From NCBI GenBank assembly GCA_964552775.1, contig CAZKIH010000011.1, forward strand, positions 15,206 to 79,205: 64,000 bases of DNA, given 5' to 3'. The notes below the pieces were generated by a model. That model was given only the letters and a program-made list of their open reading frames with translations, did not search any database and was not told the DNA's origin. Each line of letters opens with the position of its first letter. Position 1 is the stretch's first letter. Shown in pieces: positions 10,046-34,383 of this stretch. This DNA is from an uncultured Ignavibacteria bacterium. Its GTDB lineage: Bacteria; Zixibacteria; MSB-5A5; CAIYYT01. Position numbers and translations under genes: made by a program.

Positions 10046-11419
10046 ATGCAGGAACAAATCAATGCTCTATGGGACAGGTGTCTCTCCAGCTTGTCCAAGC
10101 GCGTGAACAAGCCCTCATTCTTCACGTGGCTCAAGCCAATTCGAGTGGAATTCGTCGACGGCAATTGCTTCAACATACTCGTTCCAAATAATTTCGCGGC
10201 TCATTGGATTTCCGAGCGATATCGCCAGGCAATTAGTGAAGCGCTGGCCGAAGTCTCTGAACAGTCGTGGAATTTCGATTTCAAGATCCAGAAAGCCCCG
10301 GTGCAGGTTGAGATGTTTCCGGGCGAACCGGAGGAGGACCAACCGGCGATCATCGTCAGTGGCAATGGAAGCGGACACAACGGCCACCCAGCCCCAAAGC
10401 TGAATCCACGCTACTTATTTGAGAGCTTTGTCGTTGGTGATTCAAATCAATTCGCCTATGCTGCCTGTGAGGCTGTCTCTGAAGCCCCCGGAGAAAACCG
10501 TTATAACCCTCTCTTCATTTACGGCGGTGTCGGTCTCGGCAAGACTCACTTGGTGCAGGCGATCGGAAATGCCGTCTGCCAATCCAGTCCAAAGCTCCGC
10601 GTCATGTATGTTTCCAGCGAAAACTTCACGAACGAGTTCATTCGTTCCTTGGCCACCAAATCCGTTCACGAGTTTGCCAATCGCTATCGCACGGCTGACC
10701 TCCTTCTGTTGGATGACATTCAGTTCTTCACTGGCAAAGAATCAACCCAAGAGCAGTTCTTTCACACCTTCAATGCCCTGCATCAGGAAGGCAAGCAAAT
10801 CGTCCTGACCGCAGATCGTCCCCCGAAGGACATCCTTGGTCTCGAGGAAAGATTATTGTCGCGATTCAGCTGGGGACTGGTAGCCGATATTCAACCTCCG
10901 TCACTCGAAACCCGGGTAGCAATTCTGCAGAAGAAAGCCGAGAGTGATGGTGTCACCGTTCCCAATGACGTACTCACCTATATTGCCGATTCGATCACAT
11001 CAAATGTCCGTGAGCTTGAAGGCGCTTTGGTAAGACTCGTCGCCTATGCCTCCCTGCGCAAAAAAGAATTAACGATGTTGTTAGCCCAGGACGTCCTCAA
11101 AGACTCCATTCGCTCAAAGTCGAAGCCGGTGACCATTGAACAAATCCAGAAGGAAGTAGCGTCCTATTTCAAGATTTCTGAAGAGATGTTGAAGTCAAAA
11201 AAGAAGACTCAGGAAATTGTTACGGCACGTCAGGTGGCCATGTATCTTTGCAGAACACTAACAAGTTCATCTCTCAAACTGATTGGCATCAACTTTGGAA
11301 ATCGCGATCATTCGACTGTTATCCATGCCTGCCAACAAGTGCAGGACAATATGAAATCCTCAATGGATTTCAAATTGCAGATTGATCAACTCATCAACTT
11401 GACATGTAGTCACAAGTAG
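10046..11419 (+). CDS. dnaA: Chromosomal replication initiator DnaA
   Basis: AAA+ Walker A GGVGLGKTHL, LLLDDIQF, and the C-terminal DnaA-box-binding domain (ARQVAMYLCR...). Confidence 0.97.
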   Translation: MQEQINALWDRCLSSLSKRVNKPSFFTWLKPIRVEFVDGNCFNILVPNNFAAHWISERYRQAISEALAEVSEQSWNFDFKIQKAPVQVEMFPGEPEEDQPAIIVSGNGSGHNGHPAPKLNPRYLFESFVVGDSNQFAYAACEAVSEAPGENRYNPLFIYGGVGLGKTHLVQAIGNAVCQSSPKLRVMYVSSENFTNEFIRSLATKSVHEFANRYRTADLLLLDDIQFFTGKESTQEQFFHTFNALHQEGKQIVLTADRPPKDILGLEERLLSRFSWGLVADIQPPSLETRVAILQKKAESDGVTVPNDVLTYIADSITSNVRELEGALVRLVAYASLRKKELTMLLAQDVLKDSIRSKSKPVTIEQIQKEVASYFKISEEMLKSKKKTQEIVTARQVAMYLCRTLTSSSLKLIGINFGNRDHSTVIHACQQVQDNMKSSMDFKLQIDQLINLTCSHK

Positions 11420-11654: not shown

Positions 11655-12764
11655 ATGAAATTCACTTTAACAACTGACAAAATCCAATCAGCTCTAAGCG
11701 CGGTAATGAGTGCTGTACCGACTAAATCAACTTTGCCTATCCTTGGTAATATTCTTATGGAAGCTGATGGCAAATCTTTGAGCCTATCTGCAACTGATTT
11801 GGAGATTTCAATCACGACGTCGTTGGAAGTTAAGGCTGCCAAAAAGGGATCAGTTGCCATTCCGGCTAAGACATTTGCCGATATTATCAACGCACTTCCT
11901 CAGACTGAAATCGAAATTGAATCAGTTAATAACCGCATTGAAATGCGCTTTGGCACCGGTGATTACAAAATCTCCGGAATGTCCGCCGATGAATTTCCCA
12001 AACTTCCCGAATACGATGCTAAAAAAGAAATCCGCATTCCCGCTGATGTCGTCCGCAACTTGATTGCCAAGACCGCCTATTCGGTCTCAACCGATGAGAC
12101 TCGCCCAGCACTCAATGGCATTCTTTGGCAGACCAATGGGGAGCGGATGCGCATGGTGGCCACCGATGGTCATCGTTTGTCGCGCGCCGAGGCCGACAAC
12201 ACCAAATTGCAGGGTTTGCATGGCGATGTTATCGTCCCACCCAGAGCATTCAATCTGATCAACAAACTGGCAAGTGAGAGTGTTAGCGAGGTCGGCGTTG
12301 TATTTGGTGAAAACACCCTTGTGTTCATCTGTGGTAATAACACGATCAGCACGCGCATCATCGAAGGTCCGTACCCGAACACCGATCAGGTGATTCCTCG
12401 CAACAACGACAAGAATTTGATTGTCCCCAAAACGCTGCTGATGGAAACCCTCCGCCGCGTATCGATTCTCTCCAATTCACTGACCCGCCAGGTCAAGTTT
12501 ACCATCACGAACAATACCCTCGAACTCTCGGCAACCAATGTTGATCTTGGTGGTGAAGCTGTCGAGAAGATCCCTTGTCAGTATGATTCCGATGACTTGG
12601 AAATCGGCTACAATGCCCAGTATGTCCTCGATATCCTCAAACAGCTCGACGGCGACGAAGTGCGTTTCGCACTGTCGTCCTCAACCGCAGCCGCAGTTGT
12701 AACCTCCCTCGACGACGGCGCTGATTATCTCTGCCTGGTCATGCCACTCAGACTAGCGGACTAA
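11655..12764 (+). CDS. dnaN: DNA polymerase III beta sliding clamp DnaN
   Basis: 369 aa; canonical three-domain clamp sequence (MKFTLTTDKIQSALS..., ...LCLVMPLRL). Confidence 0.95.
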   Translation: MKFTLTTDKIQSALSAVMSAVPTKSTLPILGNILMEADGKSLSLSATDLEISITTSLEVKAAKKGSVAIPAKTFADIINALPQTEIEIESVNNRIEMRFGTGDYKISGMSADEFPKLPEYDAKKEIRIPADVVRNLIAKTAYSVSTDETRPALNGILWQTNGERMRMVATDGHRLSRAEADNTKLQGLHGDVIVPPRAFNLINKLASESVSEVGVVFGENTLVFICGNNTISTRIIEGPYPNTDQVIPRNNDKNLIVPKTLLMETLRRVSILSNSLTRQVKFTITNNTLELSATNVDLGGEAVEKIPCQYDSDDLEIGYNAQYVLDILKQLDGDEVRFALSSSTAAAVVTSLDDGADYLCLVMPLRLAD

Positions 12765-22762: not shown

Positions 22763-24430
22763 ATGTTTGATCGCAATACACTCATCGCCATCATCCTGAT
22801 CTTCGTCATCTTTGTCGGCTGGTCGTTCATCTACCAACCAAGTCAGGCGCCGCCACCCTCGACAGCTGACGGTATTACTCAGGCCGATTCGGTTAAGCGT
22901 GTAATCCCGGATACCGCAGACTCAACCCTTGCGATACCGGGAATGGCACAGCCGACTCTTGATACTTTGGCCGTAGCCGCCGACACGATTCCCGAGAAGG
23001 TGATCACGGTTGAGACGGATTGTTTCAAAGCTGTCTTGACCAACAAGGGCGCAGGAATCACGAAGCTCACTTTCAAGAACTATCATTACACTGAAGGCAA
23101 ACAGGTTGAGATGCTGCCCTCCGAAGCCCAACCGGTCCCGACAATCCTCTCTCCAATAAGTGGGTTTACCGATCACGCGCTCAACTACAGCACTTCCGAC
23201 AAGAGTCTGGAACTAACGAAGGGTTCTTCCAGCCAGTCGATAACTTTCACAGCACAGGTTCCTGGTCGCGGTGAAATCGTCAAGCAATTCACTTTCTATC
23301 CCGATAAATATGATTTTGACATCGTGCTCAAGATCAACGGCGTTCCTCAGCTTGGCCTCGACAAGGAATACGTATTGGCGTGGTTGCCGGGGATCCCGCC
23401 GTCAGAGAAAAATCTTACCGATGATTTCAGCCATTATAAGGCTGCTGCCTACATGGCCGGCGAATTACAAAAGCACGATTCATTCGAAAACGGAAAGCTC
23501 ATCAAAGATGTGACCGGAAGTGCCGAATGGGTCGGCTCATGCTCGAAATATTTCGCGTACGCCTTCATTCCGGATAGCCGAACCAGCAACGGAGCCTATT
23601 TCCGTGGTACTGAGAAGAGTCGCGTTGGTACCGATGGCAGCTACAATGAACGTGACATTTCTACCGGAATTCTCATGCCATCCGGTGCTAATGTCACGAT
23701 TGAGAACAAATTCAAGGTGTTTGTCGGACCTCTCGATTACAAACTGCTCAAGAATTACAACGCCAATCTCGAGGACTTTATCGACTGGGGTTGGAAAATC
23801 ATCCGGCCGTTCTCGCATGCAATCTACTGGATCACTTATCAGCTTCATAAGGTCATCCCCAACTATGGATTGGTAATTATTTTTGTCTCGATCCTGATCA
23901 AACTTGTGACTTTTCCGCTGACACGCAAATCGCTGAAGTCGATGGCGGCGATGAAGAACCTCGCTCCGAAAATGGAAGAGCTGAAGGCCAAGTATAAGAG
24001 CGATCCGCAGAAGTTGAACCAGTCGATCATGAAGCTCTACAAGGAAGAGGGTGTCAATCCATTCAGTGGTTGCCTGCTTCTGCTCCCGCAGATGCCCCTG
24101 CTTTATGGTCTCTACAATGTCTTCCGTTCGACGATCGAGTTTCGCCAGGCCTATTTCATATCGCTATGGCCGGATCTATCGCAGCCCGATCCATTCCCAT
24201 ATATCATGCCGATCATCATGACAGTGGCAATGTTCTTCCAACAAAAGATGTCTGTCACCGATCCTAAACAGAAGATGCTCGTCTACTTGATGCCGGTGAT
24301 TTTCTTCTTCTTCATGAAGGGACTTCCGGTCGGCCTGGTGCTGTATTGGACTATGTATTCTGTGCTGTCGATAGGCGAACAGCTGCTTATTAAGCGTCCT
24401 GACGCTGCGCTTAATCCTCAAGTCAAATGA
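22763..24430 (+). CDS. yidC: Membrane protein insertase YidC
   Basis: N-terminal TM, large periplasmic domain, C-terminal 5-TM core (PLTRKS..., MKLYKEEGVNP). Confidence 0.95.
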   Translation: MFDRNTLIAIILIFVIFVGWSFIYQPSQAPPPSTADGITQADSVKRVIPDTADSTLAIPGMAQPTLDTLAVAADTIPEKVITVETDCFKAVLTNKGAGITKLTFKNYHYTEGKQVEMLPSEAQPVPTILSPISGFTDHALNYSTSDKSLELTKGSSSQSITFTAQVPGRGEIVKQFTFYPDKYDFDIVLKINGVPQLGLDKEYVLAWLPGIPPSEKNLTDDFSHYKAAAYMAGELQKHDSFENGKLIKDVTGSAEWVGSCSKYFAYAFIPDSRTSNGAYFRGTEKSRVGTDGSYNERDISTGILMPSGANVTIENKFKVFVGPLDYKLLKNYNANLEDFIDWGWKIIRPFSHAIYWITYQLHKVIPNYGLVIIFVSILIKLVTFPLTRKSLKSMAAMKNLAPKMEELKAKYKSDPQKLNQSIMKLYKEEGVNPFSGCLLLLPQMPLLYGLYNVFRSTIEFRQAYFISLWPDLSQPDPFPYIMPIIMTVAMFFQQKMSVTDPKQKMLVYLMPVIFFFFMKGLPVGLVLYWTMYSVLSIGEQLLIKRPDAALNPQVK

Positions 24431-25818
24431 AGCTCCCCAACAGCGACGACACGATCGTCGCTATCTCTACACCGCCCGGATATGGCGGTATCGGCGTTGT
24501 GCGCATCTCTGGTAGTGCCGCCTTCATCGCCGCGAACCAACTGATTCACGGGGACCATGATTTCGGCTCCGTAAAATCACATACCGTCCATCACTGCTTC
24601 ATCAAAGGATCTCAAAAACGCGTGTTTACCGACGAAGTACTGGTCACGGTCTTTGTTGCACCGAATAGCTACACCGGTGAAAATGTCATAGAAATAGCAG
24701 CGCACGGCAATCCACAAATCCTGAAGCAAATTGTCGAGATGGCGTTGAATGTCGATTGCCGCCAAGCCGCTCCCGGAGAGTTTACGCTTCGCGCCTTTCA
24801 GAATGGTAGAATTGATCTGCTCCAGGCTGAATCCGTGGCTGACTTGATCGCCGCCGAGGGAACTGCATTCCAGCAGGCGGCAATGTACCAACTTTCTGGA
24901 AGACTCTCTGAGTTTATCGGAAACCTCAGAAACGAACTGGTCGAAATCGGCGCATTGTTCGAAGCCTATACTGACTTTCCCGACGAAGAAATTCCACAGC
25001 AGCAAAAAAACGAGCTGCTCCACAAGATCGACACGATCAATGGATCGTTGGTCCGTCTCAGTGAGAGCTACAGGCAAGGCGAAATCCTGCGATCAGGGCT
25101 TCAGATTCCAATCGTGGGTCCGCCAAATGCCGGTAAATCCTCCCTCTTCAATGCCATCCTCGCAGAGGAACGGTCGATCGTCACGGAGATTCCCGGCACT
25201 ACGCGCGATACAATAGCCGAGAAGGTAGAGATCGGCGGAATTGTTGTGAGATTCGTCGATACGGCCGGGATGCGTGAAACAAGTGATAATATTGAGATTG
25301 CCGGAGTCCAGCGTTCGAAGCGCGAAATAGAAACTGCCGGCATCGTCGTGGCAGTGATCGATGCCACCAAGGCCACGGTGACGGAAGTTCGGGAATTTCT
25401 CTCCAAGCTTGGCAATAGGCAGATAATTCTCGCGCTCAACAAGATTGATCTGCTGACGGAATTTCAGATAGCGGACCTCGAATCTGAACTTCAAAACGCT
25501 TCGCCGCTACTGATCTCCGCCAGGGAATTGCGGGGCATAGACAAGCTGCTTTCACGTGTGGGTGAAATGATCTCATCGACTGCAGCTCCGTTGGGCGGCG
25601 ATTACAACATCATTACTAATCAAAGACATTTGCGAGCTGTGCTCTCAGCTCTCGACTCGCTGTCAAGCGTTCGTGAGAAGCTCGACGAGAATGAGAGCTT
25701 CGAATTATTGGCGTTTGATCTCCGCCAAGCTGTTGAGTTCCTCGAAGAAATCCTCGGCAAGGTTACGAATGACGACATCCTCGCCGAGATCTTTAGCCGG
25801 TTCTGCATCGGCAAGTAA
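24427..25818 (+). CDS. mnmE: tRNA modification GTPase MnmE (TrmE)
   Basis: G-domain GPPNAGKSSLFNA, DTAGMRE. C-terminal CIGK motif. Confidence 0.95.
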   Translation: MKLPNSDDTIVAISTPPGYGGIGVVRISGSAAFIAANQLIHGDHDFGSVKSHTVHHCFIKGSQKRVFTDEVLVTVFVAPNSYTGENVIEIAAHGNPQILKQIVEMALNVDCRQAAPGEFTLRAFQNGRIDLLQAESVADLIAAEGTAFQQAAMYQLSGRLSEFIGNLRNELVEIGALFEAYTDFPDEEIPQQQKNELLHKIDTINGSLVRLSESYRQGEILRSGLQIPIVGPPNAGKSSLFNAILAEERSIVTEIPGTTRDTIAEKVEIGGIVVRFVDTAGMRETSDNIEIAGVQRSKREIETAGIVVAVIDATKATVTEVREFLSKLGNRQIILALNKIDLLTEFQIADLESELQNASPLLISARELRGIDKLLSRVGEMISSTAAPLGGDYNIITNQRHLRAVLSALDSLSSVREKLDENESFELLAFDLRQAVEFLEEILGKVTNDDILAEIFSRFCIGK

Positions 25819-25861: not shown

Positions 25862-27745
25862 CTACAAGCACGCCGCGCACGGAGCCGCTCCGCCCGTGAA
25901 AATATAGTTGATGAGATACACGACATCGGAAATTGTGATAAGGCCGCTGCAATCAGCATCGCCTGCGACAATTGGAGTCGGTGCGGCTCCTCCTGCAAAG
26001 ATATAATTGATCAGGTAAACGGCATCGGAGATAGTCACCATCTCACTGTGGTCGGCATCTCCACAAATGAACGGCGGATCGCTAATGAGAATAGCGAGGT
26101 ATACTGTATCTGACCTTGGCGGATTGTGAGAATCAAATACAGCAATCTCAAAACCGTAATCCCCATTCTGCGTAGGAATCCCCGTGATCGAACCGATTGA
26201 TCCGCCGTTGAATTTACATCCCTGTGGCAATTCGCCGCTGAGGTGCAGCCAATTGAGCGGCGGCTCACCTCCTACGGCTTTCATCTCATAGAGATAGGGC
26301 ACACCACGCTGACCTGCTGGCGGAAAATTCTGATAGCAATGAATATTGCCATCACAGTGATCGCCGATGCCGTCACCATTTTCGTCCGGTTGAGAAGGAT
26401 TGGAGACAATCGGACAATTGTCATCCAAATCGGATGTGCCATCGCCGTCGCAATCGGGTTTCAACCTGGTCACACTGATCGTGTCTCGAAACGGAGCGCC
26501 GTTGTCTTTGACTTCCACAATGATCAGATTGGATCCGATTGACAATGTTGTGCTGCCGCTAAACAAACCATCGATTACCGGCAAGGTCGTCCCATTAAGC
26601 GTTACTTCCGTGACTGCCGGATTTCCGGAGACACCTGTAACAATCACTTCATCAGTTAACACCACAGAACCTTGTGGTGGAGAAGTAGTTACAGCATTAT
26701 CAGAATTGCAGACTCGGTTCATCACATCAGGCACAGCCGCTATGCTGGATCCAGGGATAACCATCAATTCATAGGGATGACAATAGTCCATATAGCCAAC
26801 GTATCCCGTCGGAACAGATCGGAAGTCATCGAATGCCGGGAACTCGCTGCCGATTGAGGATGGATCCATGTACAGCCATCTGTGTGCGAGCCAAATCACT
26901 GTATACATGTGCTGACTGTACCGCAACTGCCACCGCGTTTCGGCGATTGCGACCCGATTTCTTGAGAGTCCGACTTTGTATAGCATCGTCGTTAGAATGT
27001 GTGCCCTGCTCATGCAGGTTCCCCAAACAATGAACCCGTAGATATCAAACGTTGCAGCGATCGCCTCAATCGATGGGTAGCCATCGTCATAGTTCATCAT
27101 GAACGTCCATGCCGCCTGAACAGCAGGATCGCCGGGATAAGAGTTGATATAGCGGGCATTCGTCTGCAGCCATTCCCATACTAAAGAGCATTTTATCCAG
27201 ATCAACGAATCATCTTCTGTCTGCCCGGATCCGGTACCGATCGAGGCCAACAGCGAATCTATCAACTCGTTATCAGCATCAATGTTGGGGAAGTCAAAAT
27301 CTGTTACGGTTCCGTTTCCTCTACGGCTGTATCCTCCGATAAGCGAATAATTCACGAGTCCTTGATTCAAGGTCTCGACGAGGAACCCTCCCACCGGCTT
27401 GCTAAGATAGATATCAATATTTGCATTTGGAGTTTGCATGAGCATCGTGACCGACTCATAGCCCGCAGCCGATGCGAGAACCGTGTAGTCAGTCAGATCG
27501 GGAAGAACAGGGGACTCAAAGTACCCTGTCGAATCACAGAATACTGAAGTTCCATTTGGCATCAGCCCATTCCCAATAATCAACTCGGCGCACGGAATTG
27601 GGAATCCGATAGCGGCGTCGTAAACACGCCCGGTGAACTTCCCAGCAAGCGCAACGCTCGAAACAAATAGCGTTGTGTACGCCAGTAACGCCACCTTCAT
27701 CAAGAATCTCATTCTGAATATCATTGCAAATGTCTCCAACCGCAA
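25862..27745 (-). CDS. Secreted multidomain protein: CarbopepD_reg-like N-terminus, transglutaminase-like core, thrombospondin type 3 (TSP3) Ca-binding repeats, two C-terminal dockerin-like repeats
   Basis: Signal peptide MKVALLAYTTLFVSSVALA. Transglutaminase-like core GTCMSRAHILTTMLYKVGL. TSP3 repeats DCDGDGTSDLDDNCP...DENGDGIGDHCD. Dockerin-like repeats GDADHSEMVTISDAVYLINYIF and GDADCSGLITISDVVYLINYIF. Confidence 0.65.
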   Translation of the reverse strand: MRLETFAMIFRMRFLMKVALLAYTTLFVSSVALAGKFTGRVYDAAIGFPIPCAELIIGNGLMPNGTSVFCDSTGYFESPVLPDLTDYTVLASAAGYESVTMLMQTPNANIDIYLSKPVGGFLVETLNQGLVNYSLIGGYSRRGNGTVTDFDFPNIDADNELIDSLLASIGTGSGQTEDDSLIWIKCSLVWEWLQTNARYINSYPGDPAVQAAWTFMMNYDDGYPSIEAIAATFDIYGFIVWGTCMSRAHILTTMLYKVGLSRNRVAIAETRWQLRYSQHMYTVIWLAHRWLYMDPSSIGSEFPAFDDFRSVPTGYVGYMDYCHPYELMVIPGSSIAAVPDVMNRVCNSDNAVTTSPPQGSVVLTDEVIVTGVSGNPAVTEVTLNGTTLPVIDGLFSGSTTLSIGSNLIIVEVKDNGAPFRDTISVTRLKPDCDGDGTSDLDDNCPIVSNPSQPDENGDGIGDHCDGNIHCYQNFPPAGQRGVPYLYEMKAVGGEPPLNWLHLSGELPQGCKFNGGSIGSITGIPTQNGDYGFEIAVFDSHNPPRSDTVYLAILISDPPFICGDADHSEMVTISDAVYLINYIFAGGAAPTPIVAGDADCSGLITISDVVYLINYIFTGGAAPCAACL

Positions 27746-28004
27746 TCCGCCAGCCGTGGATGTATCCGCGCCAGCCAGGGTCTACTCCCTTGCCAATTTC
27801 GTGTAGTATTTAGTCCATTATAATCTACAATTTCGAATTGTCAAGGCAGTCCCGAAGCATGGTGCTCGAATTGCAGTTACTCTGAACAACCGGACTTAAG
27901 GGAGTAATTACATTGAAGTAGGACATTGCCAATAGCCCATTGGTGAGAGACTAATTGAGGTTTATGTACTTTGGAGATATGAAGTCGAATCAACGGCATC
28001 TGAG

Positions 28005-28020
28005 CGTTTCACGTGAAACG
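28005..28020. promoter_or_regulatory. parS-like centromere site CGTTTCACGTGAAACG
   Basis: Matches the central 14-mer GTTTCACGTGAAAC of the parS consensus TGTTTCACGTGAAACA. Lies in the mnmG upstream region. Confidence 0.6.
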
Positions 28021-28075
28021 GCCCAACGATCTTGCTTGATTTTGACGGCATCGCCGCGTATCATCTTCTGCTATC

Positions 28076-29938
28076 ATGAGGGATTTTGATGTAATTGTCA
28101 TTGGTGGAGGCCATGCCGGAATCGAAGCTGCCGCAGCGACTGCCCGCATGGGTGCTTCTACGGCTATAATCAGTGGTGAACTCTCCAAGATCGGTGAAAT
28201 GTCATGCAATCCGGCAATCGGCGGCGTCGGAAAAGGACAACTAGTCCGCGAAATTGATGCTCTCGGTGGACTAATGGGGCACATCACCGATCAAGCCGGA
28301 ATTCACTTCCGAACGCTGAACAAAAGCAAAGGACCTGCTGTCTGGTCTTCGCGGGCTCAATGTGATCGCAGGCTCTATCGAGAGTTCGCTCAGGAGGCAC
28401 TCGCACGACTCAACGGTCTCCATCTCATTGCCGGGATGGTTGTTGGCGTAATCGCAGAAGGTCGGGAATTCAACCGGATCGTCCTCAAGGACGGTCGAGA
28501 CATCTCAGCAAGGGCGTGTGTTCTCGCCTCAGGCACATTTCTTAATGGCCTCATTCACATCGGCGAAGAGCAGATTCCTGCCGGTCGAGTCAATGAGGCG
28601 CCGGCGCTGCATCTCTCGGAATCATTACAAGCTCTGGGCTTTCAGACAGGTAGGCTGAAAACCGGCACACCGCCACGCCTCGAGGGCGAGACGATCGACT
28701 TCAGCAAAATGGAGCCACAGCCCGGCGATGATGATTTCTACCCATTTTCGCTGAGAACACGTGAGTCTGTCAAGAATAGAGCCTTGTGCCATATAACCTA
28801 CACCTCGACGAAGACTCACGCAATTGTCGATGCCAACCTGCATCGCTCTGCAATGTTCTCTGGGAGTATCCAAGGTATCGGACCTCGTTATTGCCCGTCC
28901 ATCGAAGATAAAGTCCATCGGTTCCGTGACAAGGACCGCCATCAATTGTTTATTGAACCTGAGGGCCTTGACACTACTGAAATCTATATAAACGGACTTT
29001 CGACTTCGTTACCGTCGGATGTCCAACTCGATATTCTCCATTCTATTTCCGGCCTTGAAGATGTTGTCATGAAACGCCCCGGGTATGCTATCGAATATGA
29101 CTTCTTTCCTGCCTACCAGATAAAGCCAACGCTCGAGACACGACTAATCGACAATCTGTACTTCTGCGGACAGATCAACGGTACATCTGGATATGAAGAA
29201 GCCGCCGCACAGGGATTAATGGCAGGCATCAATGCAGTTGCTAAGCTTAGGGATAATCCCCAAATAGTATTGGACAGAGCGCAGGCCTATATCGGTGTGA
29301 TGATTGACGATTTGGTCACCCGAGTACCAATGGAGCCTTATCGAATGTTCACGTCGAGAGCTGAATACCGACTTGCACTGCGCGAGGATAACGCCGCCGA
29401 TCGATTGATCAACATTGGAAGAGGCCTCGGGCTGGTCAACAATGAAATGATGGATAGCTTCTTGTCTGGCCGGGACGCCATCGATCAGGAGAGTCGGCGC
29501 CTTCACCAGACATCAGTCCCAGCAGCCTGGGTTGATACGACCGCCAACGGCGACAAACTTCCCATGGGCATCCTGCTCAAGCGGCCAAACGTGACTTATG
29601 ATAACTTCCGGGGCATCGATGAGACTTGCGCTGGATTCCCGAAGAGACTTTCAGAAAAGCTGGAAATCTCAATCAAATACGCTGGTTACATGGAAAAACA
29701 ACAGCGCGAGATTGACCGCTTCCGGCAACTTGAGTCTCGAAAAATACCCGAGAGTTTGGATATTTCCGCGCTTTCAGGTCTGAAGAGAGAAGCGGTAGCT
29801 ACATTGGAAAAATATCACCCAGTCAATCTGGGTCAAGCCTCGCGATTAAACGGAATCACATATTCTGATATCACAGTGCTGATGATTCACTTAAAGCGCC
29901 ACTATGCTGACTCTGTTTCACGTGAAACACCCCAATGA
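28076..29938 (+). CDS. mnmG: tRNA uridine 5-carboxymethylaminomethyl modification enzyme MnmG (GidA)
   Basis: FAD motif VIVIGGGHAGIEAA; full-length GidA. Confidence 0.97.
   Translation: MRDFDVIVIGGGHAGIEAAAATARMGASTAIISGELSKIGEMSCNPAIGGVGKGQLVREIDALGGLMGHITDQAGIHFRTLNKSKGPAVWSSRAQCDRRLYREFAQEALARLNGLHLIAGMVVGVIAEGREFNRIVLKDGRDISARACVLASGTFLNGLIHIGEEQIPAGRVNEAPALHLSESLQALGFQTGRLKTGTPPRLEGETIDFSKMEPQPGDDDFYPFSLRTRESVKNRALCHITYTSTKTHAIVDANLHRSAMFSGSIQGIGPRYCPSIEDKVHRFRDKDRHQLFIEPEGLDTTEIYINGLSTSLPSDVQLDILHSISGLEDVVMKRPGYAIEYDFFPAYQIKPTLETRLIDNLYFCGQINGTSGYEEAAAQGLMAGINAVAKLRDNPQIVLDRAQAYIGVMIDDLVTRVPMEPYRMFTSRAEYRLALREDNAADRLINIGRGLGLVNNEMMDSFLSGRDAIDQESRRLHQTSVPAAWVDTTANGDKLPMGILLKRPNVTYDNFRGIDETCAGFPKRLSEKLEISIKYAGYMEKQQREIDRFRQLESRKIPESLDISALSGLKREAVATLEKYHPVNLGQASRLNGITYSDITVLMIHLKRHYADSVSRETPQ
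29914..29929. promoter_or_regulatory. Perfect parS site TGTTTCACGTGAAACA embedded in the last codons of mnmG
   Basis: Exact 16/16 match to the parS consensus. Encodes ...SVSRETP... of MnmG, 6 nt before the rsmG start. Confidence 0.7.
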
Positions 29939-30558
29939 CCCTTGAGCCGGTCTGGAAAAACCTCCTCGTCGAGTCCTTGCCATCACGCATTGCGGATCCT
30001 GAATCGTTGATCAATCGATTTCGAGGTTATCTCCTCGAAGTTAACGTGCACATCAATCTGATTGCGCGCACCGACACAAGCAGCATCATCGACGGGCTGA
30101 TCTTTGACTCCTTATCAATGCTGAGACATATCAACTACTCTGGCGGCGCATTGGTATTGGACATTGGGTCCGGCGCCGGATTCCCCTGGGTCCTCCACAA
30201 GTTGATGCGGCCTGACCTCCGCATCGTAAGTGTCGATTCGAATCGCCGCAAAATAGAATTCCAGCGGAATGTGTGCCGACTGATAGGCCTCGAAAACTGC
30301 AGATTAGTTGCCGACCGAATTGAGAGCCTTGCCCCCCTCGGTGCAGACTTCGCCATAGCAAAAGCGGTTGGTACAATCGACCAAATCAGCCATCTCGCAG
30401 CACCCCATCTCAAGCAGGGAGCTTTCCTCGTCCTTCCCAGAGGAATTTCTGAACCACACTTTCAGCCAATTCCCGGTTTCCTTCTGAAAAGCTCGTTCGA
30501 GTACCAAAGTTCGCCTAATGGCCGGTTCTCCAGCCTGGTTACTCTCGAGAAATCGTAA
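29935..30558 (+). CDS. rsmG: 16S rRNA (guanine527-N7)-methyltransferase RsmG (GidB)
   Basis: SAM-binding motif LDIGSGAGFP. Confidence 0.9.
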   Translation: MTLEPVWKNLLVESLPSRIADPESLINRFRGYLLEVNVHINLIARTDTSSIIDGLIFDSLSMLRHINYSGGALVLDIGSGAGFPWVLHKLMRPDLRIVSVDSNRRKIEFQRNVCRLIGLENCRLVADRIESLAPLGADFAIAKAVGTIDQISHLAAPHLKQGAFLVLPRGISEPHFQPIPGFLLKSSFEYQSSPNGRFSSLVTLEKS

Positions 30559-30652
30559 AGTCTATCCGTTCTTTGACAAGTTTTTATTGCGAAATGTCTG
30601 TATAATCATAAATTAGCAATCGCGAACGGACTCGTGTAATCAGGAGGGATTT

Positions 30653-31411
30653 CTGGCAAAAATATTCGCCGTGGTCAATCAGAAGGGCGGCGTCGGTAAG
30701 ACGACCACTGCCATCAATCTTTCCGCCTGTATCGCAATCGCTGAAAAGTCAACCCTACTCGTCGACCTGGATCCCCAGTCAAATGCTACTTCCGGAATGG
30801 GTGTCGACAAAAGAAATCTCGCCGTCTCCATTTATGACGTCCTGAACGACGACAAGAGTGTCGAGGAAGTCATTCTCAAGACCAACATCAAGTACCTGGA
30901 CTTAATACCGGCCAATATCAACCTGGTGGCGGCTGAGCTTGAGTTGGTTGAACGCAATGGTCGTGAGACAATCCTGCGAGATAAGTTGGCGGCAATTAAG
31001 GACTACTATGACTACATTGTGATCGATTGTCCACCATCATTAGGACTTCTAACATTGAATGCGCTGGTTGCCGCCGACCACCTCCTGATCCCCATTCAGG
31101 CCGAATACTACGCGCTCGAGGGGCTCGGTCAGCTGATCAGTACGATTGGATTGGTGCAACAAAATCTCAATCGCAATTTGACGATAGGTGGAATTCTCAT
31201 CACAATGTTCGACCCGCGCCTGAACCTTGCTCGTCAGGTCGTGGAAGAAACTCGGAATCATTTCAAGGACAAAGTCTTTGCTACGATAATCAACCGCAAT
31301 GTCCGCCTTGGCGAGGCGCCGTCTTTCGGCAAGCCGATCATCCTGTATGATATCGGTTCAACCGGAGCTGAGAACTACATCTCGCTGACGGAGGAGGTCT
31401 TACGGATATGA
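30653..31411 (+). CDS. parA: Chromosome partitioning ATPase ParA/Soj (start uncertain; likely non-ATG)
   Basis: Deviant Walker A NQKGGVGKTTTAINLSA. Strong SD AGGAGGG at 30642-30648; in-frame CTG at 30653 and GTG at 30671 are the start candidates. Confidence 0.85.
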   Translation: MAKIFAVVNQKGGVGKTTTAINLSACIAIAEKSTLLVDLDPQSNATSGMGVDKRNLAVSIYDVLNDDKSVEEVILKTNIKYLDLIPANINLVAAELELVERNGRETILRDKLAAIKDYYDYIVIDCPPSLGLLTLNALVAADHLLIPIQAEYYALEGLGQLISTIGLVQQNLNRNLTIGGILITMFDPRLNLARQVVEETRNHFKDKVFATIINRNVRLGEAPSFGKPIILYDIGSTGAENYISLTEEVLRI

Positions 31412-32292
31412 AAAAACCGGCACTCGGAAAAGGTCTGTCGGCGCTGATTCCTACCGCTCTATACGCGCCGGCGGTACCGGAGATGCATCCTGAGCCTGAA
31501 CACGGCGACAGGTTTGTGATGGTCTCGCTTGACAAGTTGATCGCCAATCCAAATCAGCCGCGCAAGTATTTCGCGGAGGAGAAATTGAGTCAGCTTGCAG
31601 ATTCCATCGCCCAAAAAGGAGTGCTGCAGCCGATCCTCGTGCGCCAGATCAACGGTAAATTCCAGATCGTCGCCGGTGAACGGCGCTTTCGTGCTGCCGA
31701 ACGACTCGGCTTGGCGGAAGTCCCGGCTCGGATCGTCGAGCACTTGGATGATCGCGACATGCTCGAGATTTCCATTGTCGAAAACCTGCAGCGCGATGAT
31801 CTCAATCCTCTGGAATTGGCGGAGGGCTATCAACGCCTCGTAACGGAATTCAGCTTGACCCAGGTCGAGCTTTCCACCCGAGTTGGTAAGGACCGCTCTT
31901 CGGTCGCCAACACGTTACGGTTGCTGAATCTCCCAAATGAAGTGAAAGCAAGAATAGCTACGGGTGAACTGAAGGAAGGTCACGCGCGCGCGATCCTCGC
32001 CTTGGAGACTGAAAAAGAGCAGTTGGAGCTTGCGCGTAAAATCATCGAAGAAGATTTGACCGTCCGGGCAATCGAAGAGATCATCTACGGCGGGCAGCGC
32101 AAGAAGCGGGGACGCAGCTTGAAACTGAAAACTCGCCCAATTGAAATTTCACAAGCCGAAACTGCGCTCAAACGCAGACTTGGTACCGCGGTGACAATTC
32201 AGCGCGGTCTGAAACGCGGGAAAATCACCATTCAATTCTATGGCGATTCCGATCTGACGCGCATCCTCGAACTCCTGGGAGTTGAACTCTAA
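31408..32292 (+). CDS. parB: Chromosome partitioning protein ParB/Spo0J
   Basis: ParB box GERRFRAAE; HTH; C-terminal dimerisation domain. Confidence 0.95.
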   Translation: MKKPALGKGLSALIPTALYAPAVPEMHPEPEHGDRFVMVSLDKLIANPNQPRKYFAEEKLSQLADSIAQKGVLQPILVRQINGKFQIVAGERRFRAAERLGLAEVPARIVEHLDDRDMLEISIVENLQRDDLNPLELAEGYQRLVTEFSLTQVELSTRVGKDRSSVANTLRLLNLPNEVKARIATGELKEGHARAILALETEKEQLELARKIIEEDLTVRAIEEIIYGGQRKKRGRSLKLKTRPIEISQAETALKRRLGTAVTIQRGLKRGKITIQFYGDSDLTRILELLGVEL

Positions 32293-33117
32293 ATGTCGAG
32301 AAGCGATCAACAGATTACGTTGATGCTGATCTTTGAGACCGGCAAGTCGCCCCTGACTCTGAAATTCTCTCGGCTGCTGTACTATACCGTGCTGGGTGTT
32401 ATTGCGCTTTTGATCATCATCTCGATTGTCGGGACCTTCACCTATGCACGCTTGCTGGTGCATTCCAGCGAGCGGGAACAACTCACACAGGAAAACGAAG
32501 AACTGCGTCGCCTGAATTCAAAAGTTGTATTATTAGAAAGTAATCTTCAGGCGTATCGAGACATGCTCAGTCAGGTCGCCACTCTGGCAGGAATTGACTT
32601 GAGCCAGTATGGGATGCAGATTCCAACCGAAGGAGGCGAAGTAGCTGGGTCGAATCAGCTCCCGCGGGAGCCGGCCCTGATCACGGACCAGGCTGATCTC
32701 AATGCAGGGCCTGTCAGCGAGCCGAAAGGCCTGCCGGTACAGGGCTTTGTCTCACGCACATTTCGGCCAACTGCGGATAACCCGAGAACACGCCATCTGG
32801 GAATCGATCTGGCAGTAAAGAAAGGAACCCGCGTTATTGCCACGGCAGACGGTGAAGTAACTTTCGCCGGATGGGATGACGCTTTTGGCTGGAAGGTTGT
32901 ATTGAAACACCCGAACAATGTCGAAACTATGTATGGACACAACGACTCGATATTAGTCGCCATTGGTCAACACGTTCGTTACGGTCAGACGATTGCACTC
33001 TCGGGCAGCACTGGAGTCAGCACTGCACCGCATGTCCATTATGAACTTCGCGTTGACGGACTACCTGTTAATCCGGAAGAATATTATGGCAAAGACAATA
33101 ATTCCAAATCTCATTAA
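32293..33117 (+). CDS. M23 family metallopeptidase with N-terminal TM anchor and coiled coil
   Basis: HLGIDLA..., GYG..., and HVHYELR zinc-ligand motifs. Confidence 0.85.
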   Translation: MSRSDQQITLMLIFETGKSPLTLKFSRLLYYTVLGVIALLIIISIVGTFTYARLLVHSSEREQLTQENEELRRLNSKVVLLESNLQAYRDMLSQVATLAGIDLSQYGMQIPTEGGEVAGSNQLPREPALITDQADLNAGPVSEPKGLPVQGFVSRTFRPTADNPRTRHLGIDLAVKKGTRVIATADGEVTFAGWDDAFGWKVVLKHPNNVETMYGHNDSILVAIGQHVRYGQTIALSGSTGVSTAPHVHYELRVDGLPVNPEEYYGKDNNSKSH

Positions 33118-33130
33118 AGGAGAAGAGACG

Positions 33131-33511
33131 ATGGCAGAAAATCTGAGCACCATCATCGGAAAGGATAGTGTTTTCACTGGAACCATGGAGGTGAAGGGCA
33201 CTCTTCGCGTCGACGGCAAATTGAAAGGCAAAATCGTATCGGATGAAACTGTCTCTATCGGATCGACGGGTGAGGTCGAGGCAGACATTGAGGCCAAGAT
33301 CGTGATCGTTTCCGGTACGGTTGTCGGAAACATCCATTCCTCGGAAAAAACCGAAATGCAGGCTAAAGCCAAGGTAGTAGGTGACTTAGTCACAAAAAGC
33401 ATCGTCATCGAGCAAGGTGCCATATTTCATGGCTCATGCCAGATGAAAGGCCTAAAAGAATTCGACCAGAAACCCGATAATAAGATGGTAGATAAGAAAC
33501 CGCAACTCTAA
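33131..33511 (+). CDS. Bactofilin (CcmA/DUF583 beta-helical cytoskeletal protein)
   Basis: Repetitive beta-helix segments (VFTGTMEVKGTLRVDGKLKGKIV...). RBS AAGGAGAAGAG before ATG 33131, an internal Met of the 32963 ORF. Confidence 0.8.
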   Translation: MAENLSTIIGKDSVFTGTMEVKGTLRVDGKLKGKIVSDETVSIGSTGEVEADIEAKIVIVSGTVVGNIHSSEKTEMQAKAKVVGDLVTKSIVIEQGAIFHGSCQMKGLKEFDQKPDNKMVDKKPQL

Positions 33512-33678
33512 TCAAGTTGTAACAGTTTGCCTGTGTGGATAACGTGAGCAACAATGTGGAAATTGTTGTAACGTATTGGAAGATAGCATAATGCGGTCTG
33601 GACTTAACGATACGATTTAAGGGTTATCCACAAGAGCTTGATTTAAGAATGTTTAGATTTCTGTAAGGCGGATTCACT
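33512..33678. promoter_or_regulatory. Intergenic DnaA-box cluster (alternative oriC candidate / DnaA-regulated promoter)
   Basis: Perfect TGTGGATAA at 33534-33542. TGTGGAAAT at 33555-33563. Perfect TTATCCACA at 33624-33632. AT-rich. Confidence 0.45.
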
Positions 33679-34383
33679 TTGGGCACATTCTTTCTCACAG
33701 CCGGGACAGTTTTGTTCTTCGTCGGTCTCGGATGTCTACTATTTGTGTTTGTCTCTATCGCTCGCCGACTGAGAGACAATATTACTACATCGGTCTACTT
33801 TAGAAGCAAGCGCTCTGCGAGGCCATGGATTCTCTCAGGTGCCGGAATTCTGTTGATCGCCATTGCTCAGTGTTTCTACTGGTTCAACAATGAAGTGGAA
33901 CGCTTCATTCCTTTTAATGCTGACACGCCCCAGGCGCAGATAAGCTTTCTTTATGAAGAATACAAACAACCTCGCCTTGTCGTCCAAGTTACTGATAGCA
34001 ACAATTTGACTACTTCACAAATGGTTCCCTTTACGGCAGACAGCGTCGCACTCGGAGTTGAGATTGTTCATTGGAAGAAAGTTTGCCAGGTGATTGGACT
34101 CAAGGACTGCTATCGCATCAACGGCATCTACTATCTGAGCGGAGCCGGCGACACGCTACTGACATTATCGCGAATCCCAAATCATGAGTTGAATGGCGGA
34201 CAGTCGGGGTTTGTCGGATTGGTGCAGGCGATCGGCTCAGCGTTTCCGGGTGAGCTGAAGTTGTACCTCTCGCAGCCGATCGTAACGGATGGCAGCTCCA
34301 GATATTTGACACAGATTGCCTGGGATGCTGTTACCACCACTCGTTTGATTGACAAACCAACCGCCGTGAATTATCCTCGTTAA
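33679..34383 (+). CDS. Hypothetical membrane-anchored protein (TTG start)
   Basis: Two N-terminal TM helices; no recognisable domain. Confidence 0.4.
   Translation: MGTFFLTAGTVLFFVGLGCLLFVFVSIARRLRDNITTSVYFRSKRSARPWILSGAGILLIAIAQCFYWFNNEVERFIPFNADTPQAQISFLYEEYKQPRLVVQVTDSNNLTTSQMVPFTADSVALGVEIVHWKKVCQVIGLKDCYRINGIYYLSGAGDTLLTLSRIPNHELNGGQSGFVGLVQAIGSAFPGELKLYLSQPIVTDGSSRYLTQIAWDAVTTTRLIDKPTAVNYPR

What the first reader, a model, noticed from the sequence alone, without database searches (positions are those of the whole stretch)
28005..29929. Two parS sites bracketing mnmG, one coded inside the mnmG stop-proximal codons
A perfect TGTTTCACGTGAAACA at 29914-29929 lies inside mnmG (codons SVSRETP), 6 nt from the rsmG start. 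A 14/16 copy lies at 28005-28020 in the mnmG promoter region. Both are ~1-2 kb upstream of parAB, consistent with ParB loading sites.
Basis: partly seen in the sequence, partly recalled or inferred. Interest (0 to 1): 0.5.

Follow-up and report, generated by a model that had tools for sequence, protein, structure and literature searches.

The report
Two chromosome-partition parS sites flanking mnmG
The two 16-base palindromes on either side of the mnmG gene are very probably real docking sites (parS) for the chromosome-partitioning protein ParB encoded next door in an uncultured Zixibacteria genome; this is an ordinary, well-understood kind of element, though its position is unusually well conserved.

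Summary
Observation confirmed. A perfect TGTTTCACGTGAAACA lies at 29914-29929, inside the last codons of mnmG (S-V-S-R-E-T-P-Q-stop), with 5 nt between it and the rsmG ATG. CGTTTCACGTGAAACG (14/16, inner 14 bp intact) lies at 28005-28020, with 55 nt between it and the mnmG ATG. These are the only matches with up to 3 mismatches in 64 kb (P of two sites at up to 2 mismatches about 1e-4).

The window is the origin region of a candidate-division Zixibacteria MAG: dnaA-dnaN, then yidC-mnmE-mnmG-rsmG-parA-parB. ParB is canonical: GERRFRA CTP box, HTH with parS-type specificity residues, and best PDB matches to Myxococcus, Thermus and Caulobacter ParB.

In 9 of 9 other syntenic Zixibacteria loci (ParB identity 89-51%) a 0-1 mismatch site sits at the mnmG/rsmG junction. 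It is invariant while the neighbouring codons and the stop position drift, and in three lineages it is intergenic. Selection therefore acts on the DNA, not on the MnmG tail. Seven of the nine, plus the window, also have a site upstream of mnmG.

Interpretation supported: these are ParB loading sites (centromere). This is a new member of a known kind, of low interest. The mild curiosity is that mnmG-flanking parS recurs across several phyla, often abutting start codons.

The parts
28005..28020 (.). Upstream parS (CGTTTCACGTGAAACG). It matches 14/16 of the consensus, the inner 14 bp are identical, and it is a perfect palindrome. It lies in the mnmG upstream spacer.
   Evidence: The identical 16-mer is at the same offset in L163 and a 3-mismatch version in L162. 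Sites with 0-2 mismatches occur in the same spacer in L165, L167, L168, L170 and L171. C at the outer position is tolerated in validated Caulobacter sites (review table).
29914..29929 (.). Junction parS (perfect TGTTTCACGTGAAACA). It encodes V-S-R-E-T of the non-conserved MnmG C-terminal tail and ends 5 nt before the rsmG ATG.
   Evidence: A 0-1 mismatch site is present at the mnmG/rsmG junction in 9/9 syntenic Zixibacteria loci. It forms an island of 15 invariant columns in an alignment with 60% mean identity. The last Pfam MnmG domain ends at residue 603 of 620.
28036..28064 (+). Promoter-like element TTGATT-17-TATCAT between the upstream parS and the mnmG ATG (putative).
   Evidence: Consensus scan. 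TTGATTTTG...TAT(C/T)AT is conserved in L162, L163, L165 and L167. No experimental support.
28076..29938 (+). mnmG (gidA), tRNA uridine 5-carboxymethylaminomethyl modification enzyme.
   Evidence: Pfam GIDA E 2e-158, plus GIDA_C_1st and SAM_GIDA_C.
29935..30558 (+). rsmG (gidB), 16S rRNA m7G methyltransferase. Its start overlaps the mnmG stop (ATGA).
   Evidence: Pfam GidB E 1e-27; sequence.
30653..31411 (+). parA (Walker-type partition ATPase). The ORF list gives GTG 30671, but the conserved N-terminus AKIFAVVNQKGGVGKTT and a GGAGG at 30644-30648 suggest a start at CTG 30653.
   Evidence: Pfam AAA_31 E 4e-66 and CbiA; sequence.
31408..32292 (+). parB, the protein expected to bind both sites. 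It has the LGKGLSALI N-terminal motif, the GERRFRA CTP box, an HTH and a C-terminal dimerisation domain.
   Evidence: Pfam ParB_N, HTH_ParB, ParB_C; translation; PDB 7BNK, 1VZ0, 6T1F, 6SDK, 4UMK at E 4e-53 to 4e-44; NCBIfam parB_part 181 bits against a cut-off of 58.

Best explanation
Both palindromes are chromosomal parS centromere sites of this Zixibacteria genome. The steps below are inferred from the established ParABS mechanism; none was tested here. Dimers of the ParB encoded 1.5 kb downstream recognise the GTTTCACGTGAAAC core through their helix-turn-helix. They bind CTP at the GERRFRA N-terminal domain, close into clamps, leave parS and slide onto flanking DNA. This builds one partition complex over the mnmG-rsmG-parAB region, because the two sites are only 1.9 kb apart. 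ParA-ATP on the nucleoid then moves this origin-proximal complex into the daughter cells, and the complex probably also recruits SMC. The junction site is 'coded' in mnmG only because the MnmG reading frame runs on through an unconstrained C-terminal tail. The DNA site dictates the residues V-S-R-E-T, not the reverse.
For: The sequence evidence is shown directly, as follows.

(1) Exact and near-exact consensus sites occur only here in 64 kb, with P about 1e-4 for two sites at up to 2 mismatches.

(2) A canonical parA-parB pair is adjacent.

(3) Aligned to the Caulobacter ParB of the parS co-crystal 6T1F, ParB has R, T, N, G at the four specificity positions (GKDRSSVANTLRLLN...EGHAR). The parS type is R173/G201 and the Noc type is Q173/R201 (PMC7383237). 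Both sites keep the discriminating bases G1 and A6.

(4) dnaA and dnaN are 16-18 kb away, and the gene order is the classic yidC-mnmE-mnmG-rsmG-parAB origin-region order.

(5) Across the window plus 10 Zixibacteria loci (about 270 kb in all), all 19 sites with up to 3 mismatches lie between the mnmE stop and the parA start.

(6) The junction site is invariant while the preceding codons vary (HYADS, HYAGT, HAETS, HAADG, LPPAP, HDTRS). The stop also moves: VSRETPQ*, VSRETN*, VSRETS*, VSRET*. In L168, L170 and L171 mnmG ends 33-186 nt before the site, which is then intergenic. Only 1 of 1152 possible codon strings for VSRET is ever used.

(7) Hyphomonas neptunium uses exactly two TGTTTCACGTGAAACA sites (review table in PMC7022226).
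Against: There is no direct evidence of ParB binding, since the organism is uncultured. Only 64 kb of the genome could be scanned, so the total number and distribution of parS sites is unknown. The replication origin itself was not mapped, because GC skew in the window shows no inflection. The upstream site is less constant than the junction site: it is absent in L164 and L166, and its distance from mnmG varies. One more distant ParB locus (L169, 48% identity, not syntenic) has no site within 20 kb.
Confidence: 0.87

Rival explanations
1. The sites act mainly as operators. ParB bound at, or spreading from, the two sites that bracket the first gene of an mnmG-rsmG-parA-parB transcription unit feeds back on transcription of its own operon, as in plasmid par operons. 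Centromere function would be secondary. This reading is not exclusive of the best explanation.
For: The upstream site lies 15 nt upstream of a conserved -35-like TTGATT. The junction site sits between mnmG and rsmG-parAB. In a broad sample, parS sites hug the mnmG start codon (17 of 44 end 0-17 nt before it). ParB spreading is known to modulate neighbouring genes in S. pneumoniae (PMC4488948 abstract).
Against: In V. cholerae the gidAB and parAB1 promoters are not regulated by ParA1/ParB1 (PMC4010829). parA has its own AT-rich upstream spacer with TTGACA and TATAAT hexamers, though their 22-nt spacing is non-canonical. The position of the upstream site relative to the promoter-like element is not fixed among Zixibacteria (55 to 246 nt from the ATG). 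No expression data exist.
Confidence: 0.1
2. The junction 16-mer is conserved because MnmG needs a C-terminal ...VSRET peptide, so the constraint is protein-level and the palindrome is incidental.
For: Wherever mnmG reads through the site the frame is always V-S-R-E-T. This holds for the window, L162-L167, L012, L017, L058 and L083.
Against: In L168, L170, L171, L001, L101, L141 and L158 the site lies outside the ORF. The tail lies beyond the last Pfam domain, which ends at residue 603. All synonymous positions are invariant while the adjacent codons change. An equivalent palindrome sits in non-coding DNA upstream of mnmG. One of the two other frames is impossible because it reads TGA.
Confidence: 0.01
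3. The sites are chance palindromes, or sites for an unrelated CACGTG-binding regulator or a Noc-like paralogue.
For: CACGTG cores are bound by several regulator families. NCBIfam's Noc model gives the top raw score for this ParB (228 bits).
Against: Chance is excluded. The Noc score is below its cut-off of 315, and the specificity residues are the parS type R...G, not Q...R. The NBS consensus differs at the two discriminating bases. The full 14-16 bp, not just CACGTG, is invariant.
Confidence: 0.01
4. The element works as RNA: a hairpin just 5' of the rsmG start codon that tunes translational coupling between mnmG and rsmG.
For: The site ends 0-11 nt before the rsmG start in most of the Zixibacteria loci (in L171 the called rsmG start GTG lies inside the site). 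In L166, L167 and L168 its last A is the A of the ATG. A 6-bp hairpin is predicted.
Against: The fold is no better than shuffles (z = -1.04, with 31 of 200 shuffles folding as well). There is no Rfam match. No compensatory variation is possible or seen, because the sequence is invariant rather than covarying. The upstream copy in the window lies upstream of the putative promoter.
Confidence: 0.01

Closest known systems
Bacillus subtilis Spo0J(ParB)/parS (Lin & Grossman 1998, from memory; ParB structure 6SDK matched)
   Same: It has the same 16-bp palindrome family (tGTTNCACGTGAAACa) and origin-proximal sites, and at least one site is embedded in a coding sequence. ParB has the same domain organisation.
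   Different: In B. subtilis the classic intragenic site lies inside spo0J itself, and about 8-10 sites are spread over the origin-proximal region. Here the sites bracket mnmG, and only two are seen in 64 kb.
Caulobacter crescentus ParB-parS (co-crystal 6T1F; PMC7383237, PMC7053999, PMC8367383)
   Same: ParB is 43% identical, with E 1e-49 to 6T1F. The DNA-contact residues are the same (G-K-x-R, N, G-H-A-R). The operon context is gidAB-parAB. T/C variation at the outer base is tolerated.
   Different: Caulobacter has 5-7 sites clustered around parAB. Position 184 is N here instead of A, but this position varies among ParBs.
Hyphomonas neptunium ParABS (PMC6650430; table in PMC7022226)
   Same: It has exactly two sites with the sequence TGTTTCACGTGAAACA.
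   Different: It is an alphaproteobacterium, and the positions of its sites relative to mnmG were not checked.
Myxococcus xanthus ParB (7BNK, 7BNR, 7O0N) with the bactofilin-organised ParABS system
   Same: It is the best structural-database match for this ParB (E 4e-53). In both organisms par genes and bactofilin genes are linked (from memory for Myxococcus; here).
   Different: Myxococcus has many parS sites (about 24, from memory) and the adaptor PadC. Here an M23 peptidase plus bactofilin pair follows parB directly.

Membership tests
Chromosomal ParABS partition system (parS centromere) | A 16-bp palindrome matching tGTTNCACGTGAAACa | tested here: met
   16/16 at 29914-29929. 14/16 with the inner 14 intact at 28005-28020.
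Chromosomal ParABS partition system (parS centromere) | Occurrence far above chance and clustered, not scattered | tested here: met
   Two sites against 0.015 expected at up to 2 mismatches, P = 1.1e-4. All 19 sites in about 270 kb of Zixibacteria loci lie between mnmE and parA. Only 64 kb of this genome was available.
Chromosomal ParABS partition system (parS centromere) | A cognate ParB with an N-terminal CTP-binding domain (GERRxRA), an HTH DNA-binding domain and a C-terminal dimerisation domain | tested here: met
   Pfam ParB_N, HTH_ParB and ParB_C; GERRFRA and ENLQR in the translation; PDB matches; NCBIfam parB_part above its cut-off.
Chromosomal ParABS partition system (parS centromere) | ParB specificity residues of the parS type (R173 and G201, Caulobacter numbering) | tested here: met
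   The alignment to 6T1F gives R, T, N, G at positions 173/179/184/201. The rule is taken from PMC7383237.
Chromosomal ParABS partition system (parS centromere) | A partner ParA with the deviant Walker A motif KGGxGK[ST], encoded next to parB | tested here: met
   NQKGGVGKTT at the N-terminus; Pfam AAA_31/CbiA; parA overlaps parB by 4 nt.
Chromosomal ParABS partition system (parS centromere) | Origin-proximal location | tested here: inconclusive
   dnaA (10046-11419) and dnaN lie 16-18 kb away, and the gene order is the classic origin-region order. But oriC was not mapped, GC skew shows no inflection, and DnaA boxes are few.
Chromosomal ParABS partition system (parS centromere) | Sites conserved as DNA at orthologous positions in relatives | tested here: met
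   A junction site is present in 9/9 syntenic relatives, and an upstream site in 7/9. There are 15 invariant columns, and the site is independent of the stop-codon position.
Chromosomal ParABS partition system (parS centromere) | Specific ParB binding and CTP-dependent spreading from the sites; requirement for segregation | not testable with these tools
   This needs EMSA/BLI, ChIP-seq or genetics, and the organism is an uncultured MAG.
Noc / NBS nucleoid-occlusion system | An NBS palindrome (A at position 1, C at position 6 of the half-site) and Noc specificity residues Q173/K179/K184/R201 | tested here: not met
   The sites have G1 and A6. The protein has R/T/N/G. The NCBIfam Noc score of 228 is below the cut-off of 315.

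The most novel reading that the evidence does not exclude
The pair of parS sites flanking mnmG is not just 'near parAB'. It may be an ancient, positionally fixed module. Sites immediately 5' of the mnmG and rsmG start codons recur in Zixibacteria, Calditrichota, KSB1, Ignavibacteria, Rhodothermota, Bacteroidota and Beta- and Alphaproteobacteria. They recur even in Bacteroidota loci where no parB lies within 6 kb. That would imply a functional coupling between ParB loading and transcription or translation initiation of the mnmG-rsmG unit. Examples would be ParB-clamp feedback on this operon, or transcription-assisted ParB spreading. The alternative is mere inheritance of an ancestral gene order.
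Probability: 0.12. Interest if true: 0.45.

Novelty: new member of a known kind. Interest (0 to 1): 0.2.

Why it matters
The sites pinpoint the centromere, and so the origin-proximal domain, of a chromosome from an uncultured candidate phylum (Zixibacteria). That helps to orient and annotate such MAGs. The junction site is also a clean example of a DNA-binding site dictating the C-terminal residues (VSRET) of a housekeeping enzyme: the site stays fixed while the stop codon drifts around it. Beyond that it is textbook ParABS biology. The cross-phylum recurrence of parS at the mnmG and rsmG start codons is a modest lead for comparative work. It does not challenge current models.

Tried and rejected
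(1) I looked for close relatives with MnmG peptide-pattern scans of genome and metagenome contigs. Both scans were saturated by universally conserved MnmG peptides and returned only relatives of about 50% identity. They served as a broad cross-phylum sample but not for orthologous comparison. Close relatives came instead from a ParB protein search plus contig look-ups.

(2) The exact-protein look-up for the window's own ParB returned only a 1.2-kb Logan contig. The rest of the 106.7-kb source contig and the genome could therefore not be scanned for further sites.

(3) Livny et al. 2007, the standard survey of parS distribution, is not held. Searches of the held literature for parS with gidA or mnmG found no description of mnmG-bracketing sites.

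(4) RNA-level explanations were tested and rejected: no Rfam match, and the hairpin is no more stable than shuffles.

(5) A half-site scan (GTTTCACG) found only three copies outside the two full sites, unremarkable against shuffles.

(6) The 7/10 similarity of the 3' flanks of the two sites might suggest a duplication. It is not shared by L163 and is treated as chance.

(7) GC skew did not locate the origin.

Full report
OBSERVATION

The perfect 16-mer TGTTTCACGTGAAACA is at 29914-29929. The variant CGTTTCACGTGAAACG is at 28005-28020. It differs only at the two outermost bases and is still a perfect palindrome. No other match with up to 3 mismatches exists on either strand of the 64-kb window. 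From the window's base composition, 0.015 sites with up to 2 mismatches are expected, so two have P = 1.1e-4, and a perfect site alone has P = 1.3e-5.

The ORF 28076-29938 is mnmG (Pfam GIDA, E 2e-158). The rsmG ATG at 29935 overlaps the mnmG stop, so 5 nt separate the site from the ATG. The upstream site ends 55 nt before the mnmG ATG, in the 330-bp divergent spacer.

One correction: the sites lie 0.72 and 2.65 kb upstream of parA, not 1-2 kb.

CONTEXT

The window carries these genes:
- dnaA (10046-11419) and dnaN (11655-12764)
- yidC (22763-24430) and mnmE (24427-25818)
- a divergent secreted dockerin-like gene (25862-27745, minus strand)
- mnmG, rsmG, parA (30653/30671-31411) and parB (31408-32292)
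- an M23 peptidase, a bactofilin, a 234-aa gene with no family match, and a MoxR ATPase

This is the classic bacterial origin-region gene order. A ParB search found the identical protein on a 106.7-kb NCBI contig. It also found a graded series of relatives, several of them named candidate division Zixibacteria / Zixiibacteriota.

THE BINDING PROTEIN

ParB has the ParB_N, HTH_ParB and ParB_C domains. It also has the N-terminal LGKGLSALI motif and the GERRFRA and ENLQR boxes.

Its best matches among solved structures are all ParB proteins:
- Myxococcus ParB (7BNK, E 4e-53)
- Thermus Spo0J (1VZ0)
- Caulobacter ParB from the parS co-crystal (6T1F, E 1e-49)
- B. subtilis ParB (6SDK)
- H. pylori ParB-parS (4UMK)

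Jalal et al. (PMC7383237) showed that four positions separate parS-binding ParB (R173, T179, A184, G201) from NBS-binding Noc (Q, K, K, R). In the 6T1F alignment this ParB has R, T, N, G at those positions. Both sites keep the two discriminating bases.

NCBIfam scores the protein above the ParB cut-off and below the Noc cut-off. ParA has the KGGVGKT deviant Walker A motif.

CONSERVATION IN RELATIVES

Ten ParB-anchored 20-kb loci were fetched. Nine keep the mnmG-rsmG-parA-parB order, with ParB identity of 89, 86, 80, 74, 72, 69, 54, 51 and 51%.

All nine have a 0-1 mismatch site at the mnmG/rsmG junction. Together with the window, eight of ten loci also have a site with up to 3 mismatches in the spacer upstream of mnmG. 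All 19 sites with up to 3 mismatches in these loci and the window (about 270 kb) lie between the mnmE stop and the parA start. The tenth fetched locus (L169, 48% identity, not syntenic) has no site at all.

An alignment of 106 nt around the junction has 60% mean column identity. It contains an island of 15 consecutive invariant columns, GTTTCACGTGAAACA.

The residues before VSRET differ between lineages (HYADS, HYAGT, HYAGN, HAETS, HAADG, LPPAP, HDTRS). The stop codon wanders too:
- VSRETPQ* in the window
- VSRETN* in L162 and L163
- VSRETS* in L164 and L165
- VSRET* in L166 and L167, where the last A of the site is the A of the rsmG ATG

In L168, L170 and L171 mnmG ends 33-186 nt before the site, which is then intergenic. 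Only one of the 1152 possible codon strings for VSRET is ever used. The tail also lies beyond the last MnmG Pfam domain, which ends at residue 603 of 620.

Selection therefore acts on the DNA sequence, and the protein tail is a by-product.

The upstream alignment shows the same kind of island, GTT(T/C)CACGTGAAAC. In the closest relatives it is followed by a conserved TTGATTTTG...TAT(C/T)AT promoter-like element.

BROADER SAMPLE

The two MnmG-pattern scans returned 160 loci from many phyla, at about 46-52% MnmG identity. In these loci the density of parS sites (up to 2 mismatches) is:
- 0.63 per kb in the 300 nt upstream of mnmG (29 of 153 loci)
- 0.51 per kb around the mnmG stop (8 of 156 loci)
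- 0.012 per kb elsewhere

Both positions are occupied in Ignavibacteria (L001), Calditrichota (L012) and KSB1 (L017). Salinivenus (L058) has the 3'-end site. Upstream sites occur in six of nine Bacteroidota loci, in four Betaproteobacteria loci and in an alphaproteobacterium. Most Gammaproteobacteria have none.

Seventeen of 44 upstream sites end 0-17 nt before the mnmG start codon. The bracketing of mnmG is therefore a widespread and probably ancient arrangement, not a peculiarity of this genome.

MECHANISM

This section is inferred from established ParABS knowledge (PMC7053999, PMC8367383, PMC7022226). ParB dimers nucleate at the two sites. They bind CTP, close into clamps and slide onto neighbouring DNA. 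With 1.9 kb between the sites they should form a single partition complex covering mnmG-rsmG-parAB. ParA-ATP then segregates this complex, and SMC loading is likely. The outer-base variation of the upstream site (C...G) is within what validated systems tolerate (Caulobacter t/c at position 1). Nothing in this section was tested here.

RIVALS

- Chance is excluded.
- A protein-level constraint on the MnmG tail is excluded by the intergenic cases and by the synonymous invariance.
- An RNA hairpin affecting rsmG translation is not supported: z = -1.04, no Rfam hit, and the sequence is invariant rather than covarying.
- A Noc-like or other binder is contradicted by the specificity residues and model scores.
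- An additional operator role, with ParB feeding back on the mnmG-rsmG(-parAB) unit, cannot be excluded. It is the only rival with appreciable probability (about 0.1). The one relevant precedent found is negative: the V. cholerae gidAB and parAB1 promoters are not regulated by ParAB1.

COMPARISON AND NOVELTY

The element is a standard chromosomal parS pair, closest to these systems:
- Hyphomonas neptunium, which has two identical TGTTTCACGTGAAACA sites
- Caulobacter, with its gidAB-parAB context
- B. subtilis, which also has a site embedded in a coding sequence (from memory)

All sequence-testable membership criteria are met. Origin proximity is supported by gene content, but oriC itself was not mapped. 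Binding and function are untestable here.

I therefore do not claim that the positional conservation is new to the field.

VERDICT

This is a new member of a known kind, in a candidate phylum with no experimental system. Interest is 0.2.

Noticed in passing
window 32293-34383; L162-L171 downstream of parB: parB is followed directly, on the same strand, by an M23 peptidase (32293-33117), a bactofilin (within 32963-33511) and a 234-aa protein with no Pfam or NCBIfam match (33679-34383). The parAB-M23-bactofilin order is kept in all eleven Zixibacteria loci, including L169, which lacks mnmG-rsmG upstream. M23-bactofilin pairing is a known conserved module (LmdC-BacA; cited in PMC13393453). Its operon-like fusion to parAB recalls the Myxococcus bactofilin-ParABS link.
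   Followed up: partly
window 33534-33542 (-) and 33624-33632 (+): Two perfect DnaA boxes (TTATCCACA), 90 bp apart, lie in the 167-bp, 38% GC spacer after the bactofilin gene. The same pair with the same 90-bp spacing occurs in L162, L163, L164 and L166, and at least one box in L165, L167, L168 and L169. The window has only four perfect boxes in all. This could be a DnaA-regulated promoter or part of oriC, 3.6 kb from the junction parS.
   Followed up: partly
loci L001-L161 (broad MnmG sample): parS sites are about 50-fold enriched right upstream of mnmG and at its stop codon across several phyla. This includes Bacteroidota loci where no parB lies within 6 kb. Seventeen of 44 upstream sites end 0-17 nt before the mnmG start codon, for example TGTTTCACGTGAAACAATG in L010.
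   Followed up: partly
window 29914-29929 and homologous junctions in L012, L017, L058, L083, L162-L167: Whenever mnmG reads through the junction site, the frame is V-S-R-E-T. The F-H-V-K frame is never seen, and the third frame would stop at the central TGA. In L166, L167 and L168 the last A of the site is the A of the rsmG ATG. In L171 the gene caller starts rsmG at the GTG inside the site.
   Followed up: partly
window 30640-30675: The parA ORF as listed starts at GTG 30671. The conserved N-terminus (AKIFAVVNQKGGVGKTT) and a GGAGG at 30644-30648 suggest a rare CTG start at 30653. Gene calls for parA in the relatives are also inconsistent (204-304 aa).
   Followed up: no
window 27817-27844 (-): A perfect sigma-70 consensus, TTGACA-16-TATAAT, on the minus strand serves the divergent dockerin/CarboxypepD_reg-like gene 25862-27745. 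This gene is inserted between mnmE and mnmG. It is variable or absent in relatives, where the upstream parS then sits 4-5 nt after the mnmE stop (L165, L167).
   Followed up: partly
window 28006-28029 vs 29915-29938: The two parS copies also share 7 of 10 bases in their 3' flank (GGCCCAACGA / ACCCCAATGA). This is probably chance, since it is not seen in L163.
   Followed up: partly
window 1-64000: Cumulative GC skew falls monotonically across the whole window, with no inflection near dnaA or parAB. All genes from 36.4 to 64 kb are on the minus strand. The replication origin is therefore not evident from skew.
   Followed up: no
L169 (ParB 48% identical, JGI Ga0315545_1000004): This is a parA-parB-M23-bactofilin locus without mnmG-rsmG upstream. 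It has no parS-like site (up to 3 mismatches) within 20 kb. Its centromere must lie elsewhere or differ in sequence.
   Followed up: no
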